Below, one piece after another: positions 35,258 to 40,068 of a stretch of 64,000 bases of DNA (positions are counted from its first letter, which is position 1; each line of letters opens with the position of its first letter). Position numbers and translations under genes: made by a program. The stretch lies in IMG/VR virus record IMGVR_UViG_3300025874_000005, positions 32,001 through 96,000 of that record; one strand, written 5' to 3'. The notes below the pieces were generated by a model. The model did no database searches. It was not told the DNA's origin and saw only the letters and a program-made list of their open reading frames with translations. Source of the stretch: a virus.

Positions 35258-36073
35258 ATGATGAATTCAGAAAATTTGCAAGAAGCAAAGTATTTAACAA
35301 AAGAAGCGATTGCCAAAATGGCACCTTCAGTTTTTTCAACGAAGCCAAGTAGTGAGGTTTCAGACAAGTATACACACATTCCAACGGAGCGTGTAATTGA
35401 TGATATGGAGCTTCTAGGTTGGAAGCCAATTGAAGCCAAAGAAGTTAAGGCTCGTAAGAACTCAACAAAAGGATTTCAAAAGCACTTGCTAGTGTTTAGA
35501 AATGATGATGTTGTTATTAATGGTAGTGATGGTGATACAGTTTTTCCACAAATTCTACTAACAAATTCTCACGATGGTAAGAATTCCTTCCAATTTCAAG
35601 CAGGTTTATATCGTTTGATTTGTGCAAATGGTTTAGTTATTGCAGATACGCAATTTGAAGCCGTTAAAATGCGTCATATGGGTTATACATTTGAGGATCT
35701 TCAGGTTTTACTTAAGGACATGGTAGAAAAGCTTCCGCTTACAGTTGAATCTATGAATAAGATGAAAGCTCAAGAAATGGCAGAAGAAGAAATTCTACAA
35801 TTTGCTAAAGATGCCATTAATACTAGATTTTCAAAGCAAGAAATGAAGCGTATTGAAATTGATTATAAAGCTTTAGTTCAGCCCGTACGTAAGGAAGATT
35901 ACGGTACAGACCTTTGGTCAGTATTTAATGTAGTTCAAGAAAAAATTGTAACAGGTGACTTCGATTACCGAGCAGGTGGTAAAGCACGTAAAGCTCGTGA
36001 GATAAAGAACTTCAAGCAAGATATGAAGATCAATAAAGAATTGTTTGATGTAGCACTTCAATATGCGAACTAG
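35258..36073 (+). CDS. DUF932/DUF945-family protein
   Basis: SDKYTHIPT, ILLTNSHDG, AGLYRLICANGL, DLWSVFNVVQE. Confidence 0.88.
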   Translation: MMNSENLQEAKYLTKEAIAKMAPSVFSTKPSSEVSDKYTHIPTERVIDDMELLGWKPIEAKEVKARKNSTKGFQKHLLVFRNDDVVINGSDGDTVFPQILLTNSHDGKNSFQFQAGLYRLICANGLVIADTQFEAVKMRHMGYTFEDLQVLLKDMVEKLPLTVESMNKMKAQEMAEEEILQFAKDAINTRFSKQEMKRIEIDYKALVQPVRKEDYGTDLWSVFNVVQEKIVTGDFDYRAGGKARKAREIKNFKQDMKINKELFDVALQYAN

Positions 36074-36467
36074 AGTCACATGGTTAAATGGTTGTTTTGA
36101 TGTGCTCCATGCGGGGCACATCCAACTATTTAAAAGAGCTTGGGAGGAAGGAAATGATGTGATAGTAGGAATTGACTCAGATGAGCGTATTCGTCAGATG
36201 AAGGGTGATTGTAGACCGGTGAATTCTCTTGAAAATAGAATGCTCTTCCTACAAAGTATAAAATACATTAGGAATGTAATTCCTTTCAATACGGATGATG
36301 AGCTAGATGGTTTAATTAAACGCTTGGCTCCCGAAGTATTTGTAATTGGTGAGGAGTATAGAAATAAGACAATTATAGGTAAAAAGTGGGCTAAAGCAAT
36401 GTTGTATGTGCCTCGCTATCAAGGCTTAAGTTCTTCGGATATTATAAACGGAACCCACAACTCATGA
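36063..36467 (+). CDS. hldC: Cytidylyltransferase-family enzyme, RfaE/HldE domain II (heptose-1-P adenylyltransferase)-like
   Basis: NGCFDVLHAGH, VGIDSD, KGDCRPVN, SSSDII. Confidence 0.85.
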   Translation: MRTRVTWLNGCFDVLHAGHIQLFKRAWEEGNDVIVGIDSDERIRQMKGDCRPVNSLENRMLFLQSIKYIRNVIPFNTDDELDGLIKRLAPEVFVIGEEYRNKTIIGKKWAKAMLYVPRYQGLSSSDIINGTHNS

Positions 36468-37305: not shown

Positions 37306-38244
37306 ATGAATCTAGGATACGCTTGTATTAATACTGCACTAAGTGCTAACAAAATTATGACAAATCGCACAATGCGTCGAAAAACATTTGATGCTAAAGG
37401 TATTGATTATGTCTCCGATCTTGCATTACTTAATGTTAAAGATCTTAAAACTATTGTTCAGTGGAATAATGAGATGAAAATCAAGTTATTTCGGTTATCT
37501 AGCCAAATATTCCCTTGGTCAGATGAATATGATGTTAAAACTCTTAAAGATTATGATGAGATTAAATCAATAATGTTTGAGATTGGGCAAATTGCTAAAG
37601 ATGGAGGACAACGACTTACGATGCATCCAGGCCCTTATAATTGTTTAGCTTCACCTACTCAAAAAGTAGTTGAAAAAACTATTAGAGAATTAAATTTTCA
37701 TAGTGAGCAATTTAATATGATGGGTTATGACCCATCACCTTACAATAAAATAAATATTCATGTTGGAGGTGCATATGGTGATAAATCCACAACGTTGGCG
37801 CGTTTTGTGCAGAATTTTAGTTTATTGAATATTGACACTCAAAAACGCTTAGTTATTGAAAATGATGACAGTCCAAACGAATACTCTGTTAAAGATTTGT
37901 TTGATGGTATTTATCAACAAATTGGTATTCCAATTACATTTGATTATTTCCATCATAAATTTAATACTGGAGGGTTAACTGAGGAAGAAGCACTTAAAAT
38001 GGCATCTATTACTTGGCCTGAAGGTGTTACTCAATGTTGTCATTATTCTGAAAGTAGACGTGAAGAAAAATTAGATGAAACAATTCGCCCTCAAGCTCAC
38101 TCTGATTTAATTTATAATAAAATTAATACTTATGGTCTTAACCCAGATATAGTAATAGAAGCTAAATTAAAAGAACAGTCTATTTTTAATATAGGTCAAG
38201 ATTCAGAAGAGAATGAATTTAAAGTTTTAACACAAGCTTGTTAG
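37306..38244 (+). CDS. uvsE: UV damage endonuclease UvsE/UVDE
   Basis: LGYACIN, LFRLSS, RLTMHPG, INIHVGGAYG, LVIENDD, FDYFHH, HYSES, AHSD, EAKLKE. Confidence 0.95.
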   Translation: MNLGYACINTALSANKIMTNRTMRRKTFDAKGIDYVSDLALLNVKDLKTIVQWNNEMKIKLFRLSSQIFPWSDEYDVKTLKDYDEIKSIMFEIGQIAKDGGQRLTMHPGPYNCLASPTQKVVEKTIRELNFHSEQFNMMGYDPSPYNKINIHVGGAYGDKSTTLARFVQNFSLLNIDTQKRLVIENDDSPNEYSVKDLFDGIYQQIGIPITFDYFHHKFNTGGLTEEEALKMASITWPEGVTQCCHYSESRREEKLDETIRPQAHSDLIYNKINTYGLNPDIVIEAKLKEQSIFNIGQDSEENEFKVLTQAC

Positions 38245-38740: not shown

Positions 38741-38829
38741 GCCGCTGTGGTGGAATTGGTAGACACGACAGACTTAAAATCTGTTGAGCCGAATGGCTCG
38801 TGGCGGTTCGAGTCCGCCCAGCGGTACCA
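38741..38829 (+). tRNA. trnL: tRNA-Leu(UAA)
   Basis: Acceptor GCCGCTG/CAGCGGT, D loop GGAATTGGTAGAC, anticodon arm ACAGA-CTTAAAA-TCTGT, long variable arm, TTCGAGT loop, encoded CCA. Confidence 0.96.
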
Positions 38830-38860: not shown

Positions 38861-38937
38861 GGACTCGTAGCTCAGCTGGATAGAGCAATACCCTTCTAAG
38901 GTATCGGTCGTAGGTTCGAATCCTACCGGGTTCACCA
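38861..38937 (+). tRNA. trnR: tRNA-Arg(UCU)
   Basis: D arm GCTC/GAGC, ATACC-CTTCTAA-GGTAT, GTAGG-TTCGAAT-CCTAC, encoded CCA. Confidence 0.96.
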
Positions 38938-38940
38938 CAT

Positions 38941-39017
38941 AGGCATGTATCTCCTCAAGCTTATACCTTGTAGAAAGAGTAATTGGTTACATGAGAGTTC
39001 AAGTCTCTCCTTGCCTA
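38941..39017 (+). ncRNA. Atypical tRNA-like RNA with UAU (Ile) anticodon loop and no D arm in the normal position
   Basis: Acceptor AGGCATG/CTTGCCT, T arm GAGAG-TTCAAGT-CTCTC, CAAG-CTTATAC-CTTG, D-like hairpin GTAA-TTGG-TTAC located 3' of the anticodon arm. Confidence 0.7.
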
Positions 39018-39084
39018 CCTTAAAGAAGATTTACATATGTATTAGTGATAAAACGTTATTCTACTTTACACTCTCTATTACTTA

Positions 39085-40068
39085 ATGTATAAATTTCTTC
39101 TTTCCCTTGCGGTTATATTACTGCCCTTATCGTTATTTTCCCAATCTCCAGATGCCATAATAGGTGATGTAGAAATTGAAACTGGGTGTATTGGTGATAC
39201 ACCTTTTTATAACATAAATTATGTTGTATGGAATTTTGGTGATGAAGAAATTACAGACTATTGTATTGAAATTTGGAATGAAGATTATTATCAATGTTTT
39301 AGTAGTGATTTATTTGGGGCTTATGCAATTCCTCCTGGGGAAGGGCAATTCTTTACTACTCCTTATTTTGAAATGGAAGGGCCTGGTAGTATTTTTGTAA
39401 TGTCTGTTGATGGTATTTTAAATGAAATCGTTACTGGAAATAATAATACAACTGTATTCTTACCTGAAATACCTGAGTGTCCTGTTGATTGTTTAAACGA
39501 TACAATTACTATAACTTTACCACCAGATACTATTATACAAACGCAAATTGACACCGTTATAACGCAAGAATACGTGTATTTAACCGATACAATTGTGGAA
39601 TACATAGCAGATACTGTAGTTGTAGACAATTACATATATACAGTAGATACTTTGGAAGTTGAAGTTTTAGAGTATGTTTTTTTAACAGATACTATCACAA
39701 AAATTATTGAAGTAGATTGTAATACTGGTTTGCCCTGTAGTGAATTAATTATTGATGGGTGCTGGCCTTGGAATGTTTTTATACCTAATGTACTAACCCC
39801 AAATAATGATGGTATAAATGATGTTTGGGAAATTATTTTTGATTTAGAGTGTTGGGTTGATGTAGAATTTAAGATTTACAATAGATGGGGAAGTTTAGTT
39901 TTTGAAGGTTACGGAGAAGATTATAGCAGTTATCCTTATTGGGATGGTAGTATGCAAGGTGGATCCTCTTATGTGGTTGATGGAATATATGTTTATACTT
40001 TCTATGCTAGAAAATATAATTCCCCAGAAATATATCAAAAATCTGGGCATCTTACAATATTAAGGTAA
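39085..40068 (+). CDS. Secreted protein with signal peptide, CARDB-like domain, DT[IVL] repeats and T9SS type-B (gliding-motility-associated, CHU_C) C-terminal domain
   Basis: FIPNVLTPNNDGINDVW, KIYNRWG, YWDG, DGIYVY, GHLTILR C-terminus. Confidence 0.88.
   Translation: MYKFLLSLAVILLPLSLFSQSPDAIIGDVEIETGCIGDTPFYNINYVVWNFGDEEITDYCIEIWNEDYYQCFSSDLFGAYAIPPGEGQFFTTPYFEMEGPGSIFVMSVDGILNEIVTGNNNTTVFLPEIPECPVDCLNDTITITLPPDTIIQTQIDTVITQEYVYLTDTIVEYIADTVVVDNYIYTVDTLEVEVLEYVFLTDTITKIIEVDCNTGLPCSELIIDGCWPWNVFIPNVLTPNNDGINDVWEIIFDLECWVDVEFKIYNRWGSLVFEGYGEDYSSYPYWDGSMQGGSSYVVDGIYVYTFYARKYNSPEIYQKSGHLTILR

What the first reader, a model, noticed from the sequence alone, without database searches (positions are those of the whole stretch)
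38941..39020. tRNA-like RNA with rearranged arms: UAU anticodon arm comes first, and a D-loop-like hairpin sits in the variable-arm position
Seen: it starts 3 nt after tRNA-Arg. It has a 7-bp acceptor stem (38941-47/39010-16, one U-U mismatch), a perfect T arm (38993-39009) and discriminator A. Only 8 nt separate the acceptor from CAAG-CU-UAU-AC-CUUG, a canonical 7-nt anticodon loop whose stem can extend through CU/AG and CUC/GAG. The hairpin GUAA-UUGG-UUAC (38979-90) resembles the AAUUGGU D loop of the neighbouring tRNA-Leu but lies 3' of the anticodon arm. Established: bacteria normally read AUA with lysidine-modified CAU, and the D-loop GG docks on the T loop. Inference: an alternative-topology tRNA-Ile(UAU) or tRNA mimic that keeps the elbow contact. 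It could be TilS-independent or act as a decoy for anticodon nucleases.
Basis: partly seen in the sequence, partly recalled or inferred. Interest (0 to 1): 0.85.

Follow-up and report, generated by a model that had tools for sequence, protein, structure and literature searches.

The report
Phage isoleucine tRNA with rewired core
This 77-base gene is most likely a working isoleucine tRNA for the AUA codon that keeps every standard tRNA part but joins the D-arm pieces in a different order, a layout shared by hundreds of phages, missed by tRNA finders, and not described in any paper I could search.

Summary
Window 38941-39017 (+), 3 nt after tRNA-Arg(UCU), has a 7-bp acceptor stem, a perfect T arm, discriminator A and a canonical UAU anticodon loop. 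ARAGORN misses it, and Rfam's tRNA model scores 27.3 bits, below its threshold of 29.

It is not decayed. More than 300 relatives lie in viral contigs, and others lie unannotated in cultured crAss-like and Streptomyces phages. Covariation supports the acceptor, T and anticodon stems, and also a 3-bp helix CUC/GAG that encloses the anticodon arm. That segment is an open D-loop (A14, R15, G18G19, A21), and its R15 covaries with the base before the T stem, as in the Levitt pair.

So residues 10-45 are circularly permuted, while the tertiary nucleotides are kept. Family anticodons are only Ile (UAU, GAU), CAU and Arg. Ile members always have U20 and A73. Arg members always have A20, which I recall as the ArgRS determinant.

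This 32% GC genome has only tRNA-Leu(UAA), tRNA-Arg(UCU) and this gene, and AUA makes up 40% of its Ile codons.

The scan had already reported this family on other genomes. I reached the same reading before I saw those notes.

The parts
38741..38829 (+). Canonical tRNA-Leu(UAA), first gene of the three-gene cluster
   Evidence: ARAGORN; Rfam RF00005, 59.5 bits
38861..38937 (+). Canonical tRNA-Arg(UCU) with encoded CCA. It ends 3 nt before the element.
   Evidence: ARAGORN; Rfam, 67.7 bits. tRNA-Arg(UCU) is the nearest same-strand tRNA, upstream or downstream, in 80 of 108 distinct contexts of the marine clade.
38941..39017 (+). Rewired tRNA-Ile(UAU), whole gene, 77 nt
   Evidence: Family model R1, 96.6 bits; Rfam tRNA, 27.3 bits, below the threshold of 29; no ARAGORN call
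38941..38947 (+). Acceptor stem, 5' strand (positions 1-7); pairs with 39010-39016; U6-U67 mismatch
   Evidence: All 7 pairs show changes on both sides. The U-U at 6:67 recurs in 21 of 112 relatives, in 14 acceptor contexts.
38948..38949 (+). U8 and A9, invariant
   Evidence: Invariant columns T8 and A9
38950..38953 (+). UCUC, the equivalent of D-stem strand 22-25. CUC pairs with GAG at 38977-79. It runs straight into position 26 (38954) and the anticodon stem.
   Evidence: Middle pair: U:A 30, C:G 32, no mismatch in 62 unselected sequences; U:A 62, C:G 48, U:G 2 in alignment A1
38955..38971 (+). Anticodon arm: U27-U43 mismatch, 4-bp stem CAAG/CUUG, loop CUUAUAC with anticodon UAU at 38962-38964
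   Evidence: All 4 stem pairs covary and 100% of cells are paired. C32, U33 and A37 are invariant.
38972..38976 (+). Connector AGAAA: variable position 44, invariant G (45-like), invariant AAA
   Evidence: Invariant columns G33, A34, A35, A36; column 32 varies among A, U and C
38977..38980 (+). GAGU, the equivalent of D-stem strand 10-13
   Evidence: Covaries with 38951-53
38981..38989 (+). D-loop AAUUGGUUA: A14, A15, U16, U17, G18, G19, U20, U20a, A21
   Evidence: A14, G18, G19 and A21 are invariant. U20 is present in 163 of 163 Ile members, against A20 in 47 of 47 Arg members.
38990..38992 (+). CAU, the equivalent of positions 46-48. U38992 (position 48) covaries with A38982 (position 15).
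   Evidence: 15:48 is A:U 90, G:C 16, G:U 2, other 4; A:U 54, G:C 6, other 2 in unselected sequences
38993..39009 (+). T arm GAGAG-UUCAAGU-CUCUC
   Evidence: Four of 5 pairs covary. U54, U55, C56 and A58 are invariant.
39010..39019 (+). Acceptor 3' strand (39010-16), discriminator A (39017), encoded C74 and C75 (39018-19). The final A of CCA is not encoded.
   Evidence: A73 in 163 of 163 Ile members; C after the discriminator in 161 of 163

Best explanation
The element is a gene for a functional elongator tRNA-Ile(UAU) that supplies AUA decoding to an AT-rich phage of a marine Bacteroidota host, alongside tRNA-Leu(UAA) and tRNA-Arg(UCU).

Its body is a topological variant of the cloverleaf. 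The block that corresponds to canonical positions 10-45 is circularly permuted at the 21/22 junction. The chain therefore runs in this order:
- acceptor 1-7, then U8 and A9
- the D-stem strand equivalent to 22-25, then position 26
- the anticodon arm 27-43
- positions 44 and 45 plus AAA
- the D-stem strand equivalent to 10-13, then the D-loop 14-21
- positions 46-48, the T arm and the acceptor 3' strand

Shown here: the D stem still forms, now as a helix enclosing the anticodon arm. The nucleotides of the tertiary core are all kept (U8, A14, R15:Y48, G18G19, A21, U54, U55, C56, A58).

Inferred:
- The RNA folds into the usual L shape.
- It is cut by RNase P and completed by the host CCA-adding enzyme.
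- It is charged by host IleRS through anticodon UAU, A37 and A73.
- It reads AUA without needing TilS.
- The three new backbone joins (9 to 22, 45 to 10, 21 to 46) link residues that, as I recall the yeast tRNA-Phe structure, are spatial neighbours in the canonical core triples 9-12:23, 45-10:25, 46-13:22 and 21-8:14.
- A tandem duplication of block 10-45 followed by loss of the outer halves would produce exactly this order.
For: - Family size and structure: more than 300 elements in 295 viral loci. On 112 distinct sequences, 98% of cells are paired. The covariation score is 0.738 against 0.207 in shuffles (0 of 500 reach it) and at most 0.141 when partners are slid.
- The D stem is rebuilt around the anticodon arm. 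Its middle pair is U:A 30 and C:G 32 with no mismatch in 62 sequences collected with no constraint on either base.
- The 15:48 pair covaries between A:U and G:C.
- Class-specific identity nucleotides: Ile members have U20 in 163 of 163 and A73 in 163 of 163. Arg members have A20 in 47 of 47. Hits from a pattern that put no constraint on the D-loop show the same split. As I recall, A20 is the main ArgRS determinant, so the relocated loop is read as a D-loop.
- The only anticodons found are UAU, GAU, CAU and Arg ACG, CCU, UCU, UCG, CCG.
- It replaces rather than duplicates. No canonical tRNA with the same anticodon lies in the same locus for any of 223 UAU members, and for only 2 of 66 GAU members. 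Phages 'tikkala' and StarPlatinum pair a canonical UAU tRNA with a rewired GAU tRNA.
- It sits in tRNA clusters. Of 309 elements, 135 lie within 20 nt of a same-strand tRNA.
- C follows the discriminator in 209 of 213 members, and full CCA is encoded in 28 of 47 Arg members.
- In this genome (31.9% GC) the only other tRNAs are Leu(UAA) and Arg(UCU). AUA is 40% of Ile codons, UUA 57% of Leu codons and AGA 65% of Arg codons.
Against: - There are no RNA data.
- The L-shaped fold of the permuted chain is inferred from conserved nucleotides and from my recollection of canonical structures, not modelled.
- The three invariant As of the connector and the invariant C26 have no assigned role.
- A UAU anticodon risks reading AUG unless U34 is modified or otherwise restrained. 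Nothing here shows how that is handled.
- The alignment used for the global statistics was selected partly by pairing, although the key pairs were re-counted on unselected hits.
- Many sequences are close relatives, so cell counts overstate the number of independent events.
Confidence: 0.78

Rival explanations
1. It is a tRNA mimic or decoy. The RNA folds like a tRNA and displays an Ile anticodon loop, but it is not used in translation. Instead it soaks up a host tRNA-targeting defence nuclease or toxin, or titrates a tRNA-binding enzyme.
For: The unusual connectivity calls for some explanation. The anticodon loop is extremely conserved. Only the Ile, CAU and Arg classes occur, which could mirror the specificity of particular nucleases. 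Published work proposes that phage tRNAs evade anticodon nucleases (PMC10264068, listed).
Against: A decoy would not need amino-acid-specific identity nucleotides far from the anticodon (A73 with U20 for Ile, A20 for Arg). It would not need an encoded C74 or CCA. It would not need to be mutually exclusive with the canonical tRNA of the same anticodon. In this genome the element completes the classic UUA, AGA, AUA trio that matches the phage's codon usage.
Confidence: 0.12
2. It is a D-armless tRNA with a long variable arm. The D arm has been lost, as in animal mitochondrial tRNA-Ser(AGY), and GUAA-UUGG-UUAC is a class-II-like variable hairpin. This is the reading implied by the Rfam alignment and by the first reader.
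For: Rfam's tRNA model aligns it with the D arm deleted (4 nt in place of 15) and an 18-nt insertion in the variable region. The minimum-free-energy fold of the single sequence draws the GUAA/UUAC hairpin. Two of its four pairs are invariant.
Against: Pair 41:50 is broken in 49 of 112 sequences and no pair of the hairpin shows compensation. The loop carries invariant A14, G18G19 and A21, R15 covaries with Y48, and position 20 tracks the amino-acid class. G38979 is needed for the covarying CUC/GAG helix.
Confidence: 0.06
3. It is a decayed pseudo-tRNA, a remnant of a rearranged tRNA-Ile gene with no function.
For: No standard tool calls it. There is one U-U mismatch in the acceptor stem. The fold energy is no better than that of shuffled sequences.
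Against: There are hundreds of homologues in unrelated phage groups: marine, gut crAss-like, Streptomyces and freshwater. Compensatory changes occur in every helix, and 27 columns are invariant. The U6-U67 mismatch is itself recurrent.
Confidence: 0.01

Closest known systems
Canonical bacterial and phage elongator tRNA-Ile(UAU) (Rfam RF00005), e.g. that of Synechococcus phage S-SSM7 (L001:1341-1413)
   Same: The acceptor stem, A73, T arm and 7-nt anticodon loop with UAU and A37 are the same. The D-loop word AUUGGUUA and all tertiary-core nucleotides are the same. It lies in a phage tRNA cluster with Arg(UCU) and Leu(UAA).
   Different: The chain order of the D stem strands, D-loop and anticodon arm differs, so there is a three-way rather than a four-way junction. 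The anticodon stem has 4 bp plus a U-U mismatch. There is an extra GAAA connector. The Rfam score is below threshold and ARAGORN is blind to it.
D-armless mitochondrial tRNAs of animals, e.g. mt-tRNA-Ser(AGY) and nematode mt-tRNAs (PMC4394434, PMC2797822, listed)
   Same: No D hairpin lies between the acceptor and anticodon stems. Standard cloverleaf finders miss them.
   Different: As I recall, those tRNAs have lost the D-loop and the G18G19-T-loop elbow and need adapted partner proteins. Here the D stem, the D-loop and the elbow nucleotides are all kept and merely reconnected. At 77 nt the length is normal.
Circularly permuted tRNA genes of Cyanidioschyzon merolae and some other algae and archaea (PMC3978253, listed)
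   Same: The order of tRNA segments in the gene differs from the canonical order.
   Different: In those genes the 3' half precedes the 5' half, and processing through a circular intermediate restores an ordinary cloverleaf. Here the ends are normal, only the internal block 10-45 is permuted, and no processing step could restore the canonical order. The mature RNA itself must be non-cloverleaf.
Rewired phage tRNA-Ile, tRNA-Arg and CAU tRNAs reported earlier in this scan on other genomes (e1-5366132, e1-5362666, e1-5389541, e1-5375352 and others)
   Same: It is the same family. The core motif is UAUCYCC ... NGAAAGRGUAR..GG..ACAY, the inferred topology is the same, and the near-identical marine UAU clade is shared.
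   Different: This is another member, in a 164-kb phage of a marine Bacteroidota host whose whole tRNA set is Leu(UAA), Arg(UCU) and this gene.

Membership tests
tRNA (Rfam RF00005, canonical cloverleaf) | Score at or above Rfam's gathering threshold of 29 bits | tested here: not met
   27.3 bits, E = 5e-4, with the D arm deleted and an 18-nt insertion. No ARAGORN call.
tRNA (Rfam RF00005, canonical cloverleaf) | 7-bp acceptor stem with a discriminator base, and a 5-bp T stem with a UUCRANY loop | tested here: met
   All acceptor pairs and 4 of 5 T-stem pairs covary.
tRNA (Rfam RF00005, canonical cloverleaf) | 7-nt anticodon loop with U33 and a purine at 37 | tested here: met
   The loop is CUUAUAC. 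C32, U33 and A37 are invariant.
tRNA (Rfam RF00005, canonical cloverleaf) | D hairpin (10-13, loop, 22-25) lying between position 9 and the anticodon arm | tested here: not met
   Only 7 nt lie between the acceptor stem and position 27. The D stem forms from 38951-53 and 38977-79, around the anticodon arm.
tRNA (Rfam RF00005, canonical cloverleaf) | Tertiary-core nucleotides U8, A14, R15:Y48, G18G19, A21, U54, U55, C56, A58 | tested here: met
   All are invariant, or covarying for 15:48, in 112 sequences. Their contacts in three dimensions are inferred.
tRNA (Rfam RF00005, canonical cloverleaf) | Aminoacylated and used on the ribosome | not testable with these tools
No biochemical data are available.
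Phage tRNAs with a permuted D/anticodon block (model R1 built here) | Full-length match to the family covariance model, well above canonical tRNAs | tested here: met
   96.6 bits, against at most 27.5 bits for canonical tRNAs. The window's sequence was in the training alignment, so its own score is partly circular. The crAss-like and Streptomyces members score 85-90 bits; the two crAss-like sequences were also in the training alignment, the StarPlatinum one was not.
Phage tRNAs with a permuted D/anticodon block (model R1 built here) | Core motif UAUCYCC, then the anticodon arm, then NGAAAGRGUAR..GG..ACAY, then the T arm | tested here: met
tRNA-Ile isoacceptor | Ile anticodon, A37 and discriminator A73 (E. 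coli IleRS determinants, as I recall them) | tested here: met
   UAU, A37 and A73. A73 is present in 163 of 163 Ile-anticodon members. C29:G41 and U12:A23 of the E. coli determinant set are absent. Charging was not tested.
D-armless mitochondrial-type tRNA | Loss of the D stem and D-loop, with no G18G19 elbow | tested here: not met
   The D stem covaries and G18G19 are invariant.
Circularly permuted tRNA gene (C. merolae type) | The 3' half is encoded upstream of the 5' half, and the termini are joined during processing | tested here: not met
   The acceptor 5' and 3' strands are in normal order at the two ends of the gene.

The most novel reading that the evidence does not exclude
The rewired core is an adaptation, not a neutral curiosity. 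These tRNAs are fully functional in translation, but their altered junction makes them invisible or resistant to something that recognises the canonical D-arm and anticodon-arm geometry. That could be a host tRNA-cleaving defence, or the phage's own attack on host tRNA. Phages would then keep Ile and Arg decoding running while host tRNAs are destroyed. This would also show that the universal cloverleaf connectivity is not required for charging or for ribosome function.
Probability: 0.2. Interest if true: 0.95.

Novelty: new variant of a known kind. Interest (0 to 1): 0.8.

Why it matters
Every textbook tRNA that works on a cytoplasmic ribosome has the same cloverleaf connectivity. The known exceptions lose arms, as in mitochondria, or change stem lengths, as in tRNA-Sec and allo-tRNAs. 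None that I know of reorders the chain.

If these phage RNAs are charged and decoded, they show that the L-shaped fold and its recognition by RNase P, the CCA-adding enzyme, IleRS or ArgRS, EF-Tu and the ribosome tolerate a different backbone path through the core. That bears on tRNA evolution and on the design of orthogonal tRNAs.

In practice, tRNA finders miss them (4 of 309 were called). Phage tRNA repertoires and codon-compensation analyses are therefore systematically incomplete for Ile and Arg. The affected genomes include cultured crAss-like and Streptomyces phages, where the gene lies unannotated.

Tried and rejected
- Thermodynamics: the single-sequence fold is no better than that of shuffles (z = 0.05), so it is uninformative.
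The CU/AG extension was rejected because position 44 varies without compensation.
- U8:A15 Watson-Crick pairing, as an alternative to 15:48, was considered. U8 is invariant, so it cannot be excluded. The strict A:U to G:C switch at 15:48 is what the data show.
- Partner enzyme idea: a cytidylyltransferase-like gene lies 2.5 kb upstream in the window, and a 'nucleotidyltransferase' gene abuts the StarPlatinum copy. The two proteins are unrelated (BLASTP E = 36; Pfam CTP_transf_like versus a weak RlaP hit), so there is no shared partner.
- Other amino acids: patterns that allowed any anticodon gave only Ile, CAU and Arg members plus chance coding hits. A pattern for UAV anticodons gave one chance hit.
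- A second copy in this genome: none. The next hits are the canonical tRNA-Arg at 19.8 bits and a 15.4-bit chance hit.
- Literature: nine full-text searches and one paper checked (PMC13092985) turned up no description of this architecture. Subscription-only papers were not searchable.
- ORF 38945-39085 (46 aa) overlaps the element. I take it as spurious, because the conservation pattern is that of RNA helices.

Full report
**What is in the sequence.** Window 38941-39017 on the + strand starts 3 nt after tRNA-Arg(UCU), which ARAGORN places at 38861-38937. Read directly, the element consists of:
- acceptor strand AGGCAUG
- UA
- UCUC, then C
- U-CAAG-CUUAUAC-CUUG-U
- AGAAA
- GAGU
- AAUUGGUUA
- CAU
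- T arm GAGAG-UUCAAGU-CUCUC
- acceptor strand CUUGCCU, discriminator A, then CC

ARAGORN finds only tRNA-Leu(UAA) and tRNA-Arg(UCU) in the window and in the whole 164-kb virus record. Rfam's tRNA model reaches 27.3 bits, below its threshold of 29. It does so by deleting the D arm and inserting 18 nt in the variable region. The single-sequence fold is thermodynamically unremarkable (z = 0.05).

**It is a large conserved family.**
- Two looser patterns also hit the limit.
- In total I collected 309 elements in 295 loci. ARAGORN calls only 4 of them.
- GenBank phages hold unannotated copies. These are the cultured crAss-like Kehishuvirus 'tikkala' (anticodon GAU), crAssphage cr130_1 (UAU) and 78 Streptomyces phages such as StarPlatinum (GAU).
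- One pattern scan of 185,579 prokaryotic species genomes gave only 17 true members. Nearly all are on MAG contigs.
- Flavobacteriaceae and Cryomorphaceae bins carry the same marine clade as the window.
- The family is therefore essentially phage-borne.

**Structure from covariation.** On 112 distinct sequences (alignment A1) my proposed structure has 98% of cells paired. Its covariation score is 0.738, against 0.207 in shuffles and at most 0.141 when partners are slid.
- All acceptor and anticodon-stem pairs, and 4 of 5 T-stem pairs, change on both sides.
- The decisive extra helix is CUC (38951-53) with GAG (38977-79). Its middle pair is U:A or C:G. Because my first filter demanded pairing there, I re-counted on raw pattern hits that constrained neither base. 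The result was U:A 30, C:G 32 and no mismatch.
One pair is broken in 49 of 112 sequences with no compensation, and the rest are invariant or wobble only.
- That segment instead has invariant A, then R, two or three variable bases, invariant GG, two variable bases and invariant A. This is the canonical D-loop signature A14, R15, G18G19, A21.
- The R covaries with the pyrimidine just 5' of the T stem: A:U 90, G:C 16, G:U 2, other 4. On unselected hits it is A:U 54, G:C 6, other 2. This is the behaviour of the Levitt 15:48 pair.
- U8, A9, U54, U55, C56 and A58 are invariant.

**Reading of the topology (inference).** The strand GAGU that leads into the D-loop is the equivalent of positions 10-13. 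Its partner UCUC follows U8 and A9 and runs straight into position 26 and the anticodon stem, so it is the equivalent of 22-25.

The chain order is therefore: 1-9, then 22-45 plus AAA, then 10-21, then 46-48, then the T arm. This is a circular permutation of the internal block 10-45, opened between 21 and 22.

As I recall the yeast tRNA-Phe structure, the new joins (9 to 22, 45 to 10, 21 to 46) link residues that already touch in the core triples 9-12:23, 45-10:25, 46-13:22 and 21-8:14. An L shape is therefore sterically plausible. A tandem duplication of block 10-45 followed by loss of the outer halves would generate this order. I could not model the three-dimensional fold.

**Evidence that it works as a tRNA.**
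1. Anticodons. Patterns open to any anticodon returned only UAU, GAU, CAU and the Arg anticodons ACG, CCU, UCU, UCG and CCG. Everything else was a chance coding match.
2. Identity nucleotides track the anticodon class.
   - Ile members have U20 in 163 of 163 and A73 in 163 of 163.
   - Arg members have A20 in 47 of 47 and mostly G73.
   - The split is also visible in hits from a pattern that did not constrain the D-loop.
   - As I recall, A20 is the principal ArgRS determinant. The relocated loop therefore appears to be read as a D-loop.
   - Ile and Arg identity would differ by two substitutions (U20A and A35C). That may explain the narrow repertoire.
3. C follows the discriminator in 209 of 213 members. 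Full CCA is encoded in 28 of 47 Arg members. The window has A-CC-U.
4. Replacement. No canonical tRNA with the same anticodon lies in the same locus for any of 223 UAU members, and for only 2 of 66 GAU members. 'tikkala' and StarPlatinum pair a canonical UAU tRNA with a rewired GAU tRNA.
5. Clustering. Of 309 elements, 135 lie within 20 nt of a same-strand tRNA. In the marine clade, tRNA-Arg(UCU) is the nearest same-strand tRNA, upstream or downstream, in 80 of 108 distinct contexts.
6. Codon usage in this genome. It is 31.9% GC. UUA is 57% of Leu codons, AGA 65% of Arg codons and AUA 40% of Ile codons. Its only tRNA genes are Leu(UAA), Arg(UCU) and this UAU element. Only one rewired copy is present.

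**Context.** The next gene (39085-40065) carries a CHU_C type IX secretion domain. Together with the Flavobacteriaceae and Cryomorphaceae MAG hits, this points to a marine Bacteroidota host. No convincing promoter or terminator stands out near the cluster. Two terminator-like hairpins lie inside the next ORF.

**What remains open.**
- Why the core is rewired is unknown. Escape from tRNA-targeting nucleases is attractive but untested.
- The invariant GAAA connector and the recurrent U6-U67 mismatch (21 of 112 sequences, in 14 acceptor contexts) have no assigned role.

**Known or new.** Nine literature searches and one paper check found no description.
- The closest published categories differ in kind.
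  - Mitochondrial D-armless tRNAs lose the D-loop.
  - Permuted tRNA genes (PMC3978253) mature into ordinary cloverleaves.
- Within this scan the same family has already been reported on several other genomes, with the same reading.
- My model was written down, before I saw those notes, so it is an independent re-derivation. It is not independent evidence, because it rests on the same public data.
- I class the element as a new variant of a known kind (tRNA). It is of high interest, pending experimental proof.

Noticed in passing
window 39085-40065 (+): The gene right after the tRNA cluster encodes a 327-aa protein with a C-terminal CHU_C type IX secretion signal domain (Pfam PF13585, E = 1.4e-16). 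A phage-borne T9SS cargo points to a Bacteroidota host. Relatives occur in 19 viral contigs.
   Followed up: partly
window 37306-38241 (+): A phage-encoded UvdE UV-damage endonuclease (Pfam PF03851, E = 1e-54) lies about 0.5 kb upstream of the tRNA cluster. Also nearby are a DUF932 protein (35258-36070) and a small cytidylyltransferase-like protein (36063-36464).
   Followed up: no
window 38946 and 39011; alignment A1 columns 6 and 73: The U6-U67 mismatch in the acceptor stem is not a defect of this copy. It recurs in 21 of 112 distinct family members, in 14 different acceptor-stem contexts and in the Ile, CAU and Arg classes. The 'tikkala' copy has two adjacent U-U mismatches.
   Followed up: partly
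L138:596-672 (OQ198717.1 95577-95653); L372:5995-6071 (MH576965.1 75276-75352): Cultured phages carry unannotated rewired tRNA-Ile(GAU) genes. These are Kehishuvirus 'tikkala' (host Bacteroides cellulosilyticus) and 78 Streptomyces phages such as StarPlatinum. Each of the two named phages also has an annotated canonical tRNA-Ile(UAU). They are ready experimental systems.
   Followed up: partly
L267, L313, L263, L312, L279 (coordinates): A sub-family of rewired tRNA-Arg(ACG) has a full 5-bp anticodon stem and a D-stem strand one nucleotide shorter. In some members a 15-25-nt extra segment lies between the D-loop and the T arm, like a long variable arm.
   Followed up: no
L356:6534-6610 (Achromobacter anxifer LMG 26857, NZ_CAHLAR010000005.1): This is the only hit on a record not labelled as a MAG in the scan of 185,579 species genomes. 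It is a rewired tRNA-Arg(CCG) with encoded CCA on a 487-kb contig, presumably in a prophage. ARAGORN also found a canonical tRNA with anticodon CCG in the same locus.
   Followed up: no
family-wide; window 39018: The base after the discriminator is C in 209 of 213 distinct members, even where CCA is not encoded. This suggests a constraint on 3'-end processing or on RNase P recognition.
   Followed up: partly
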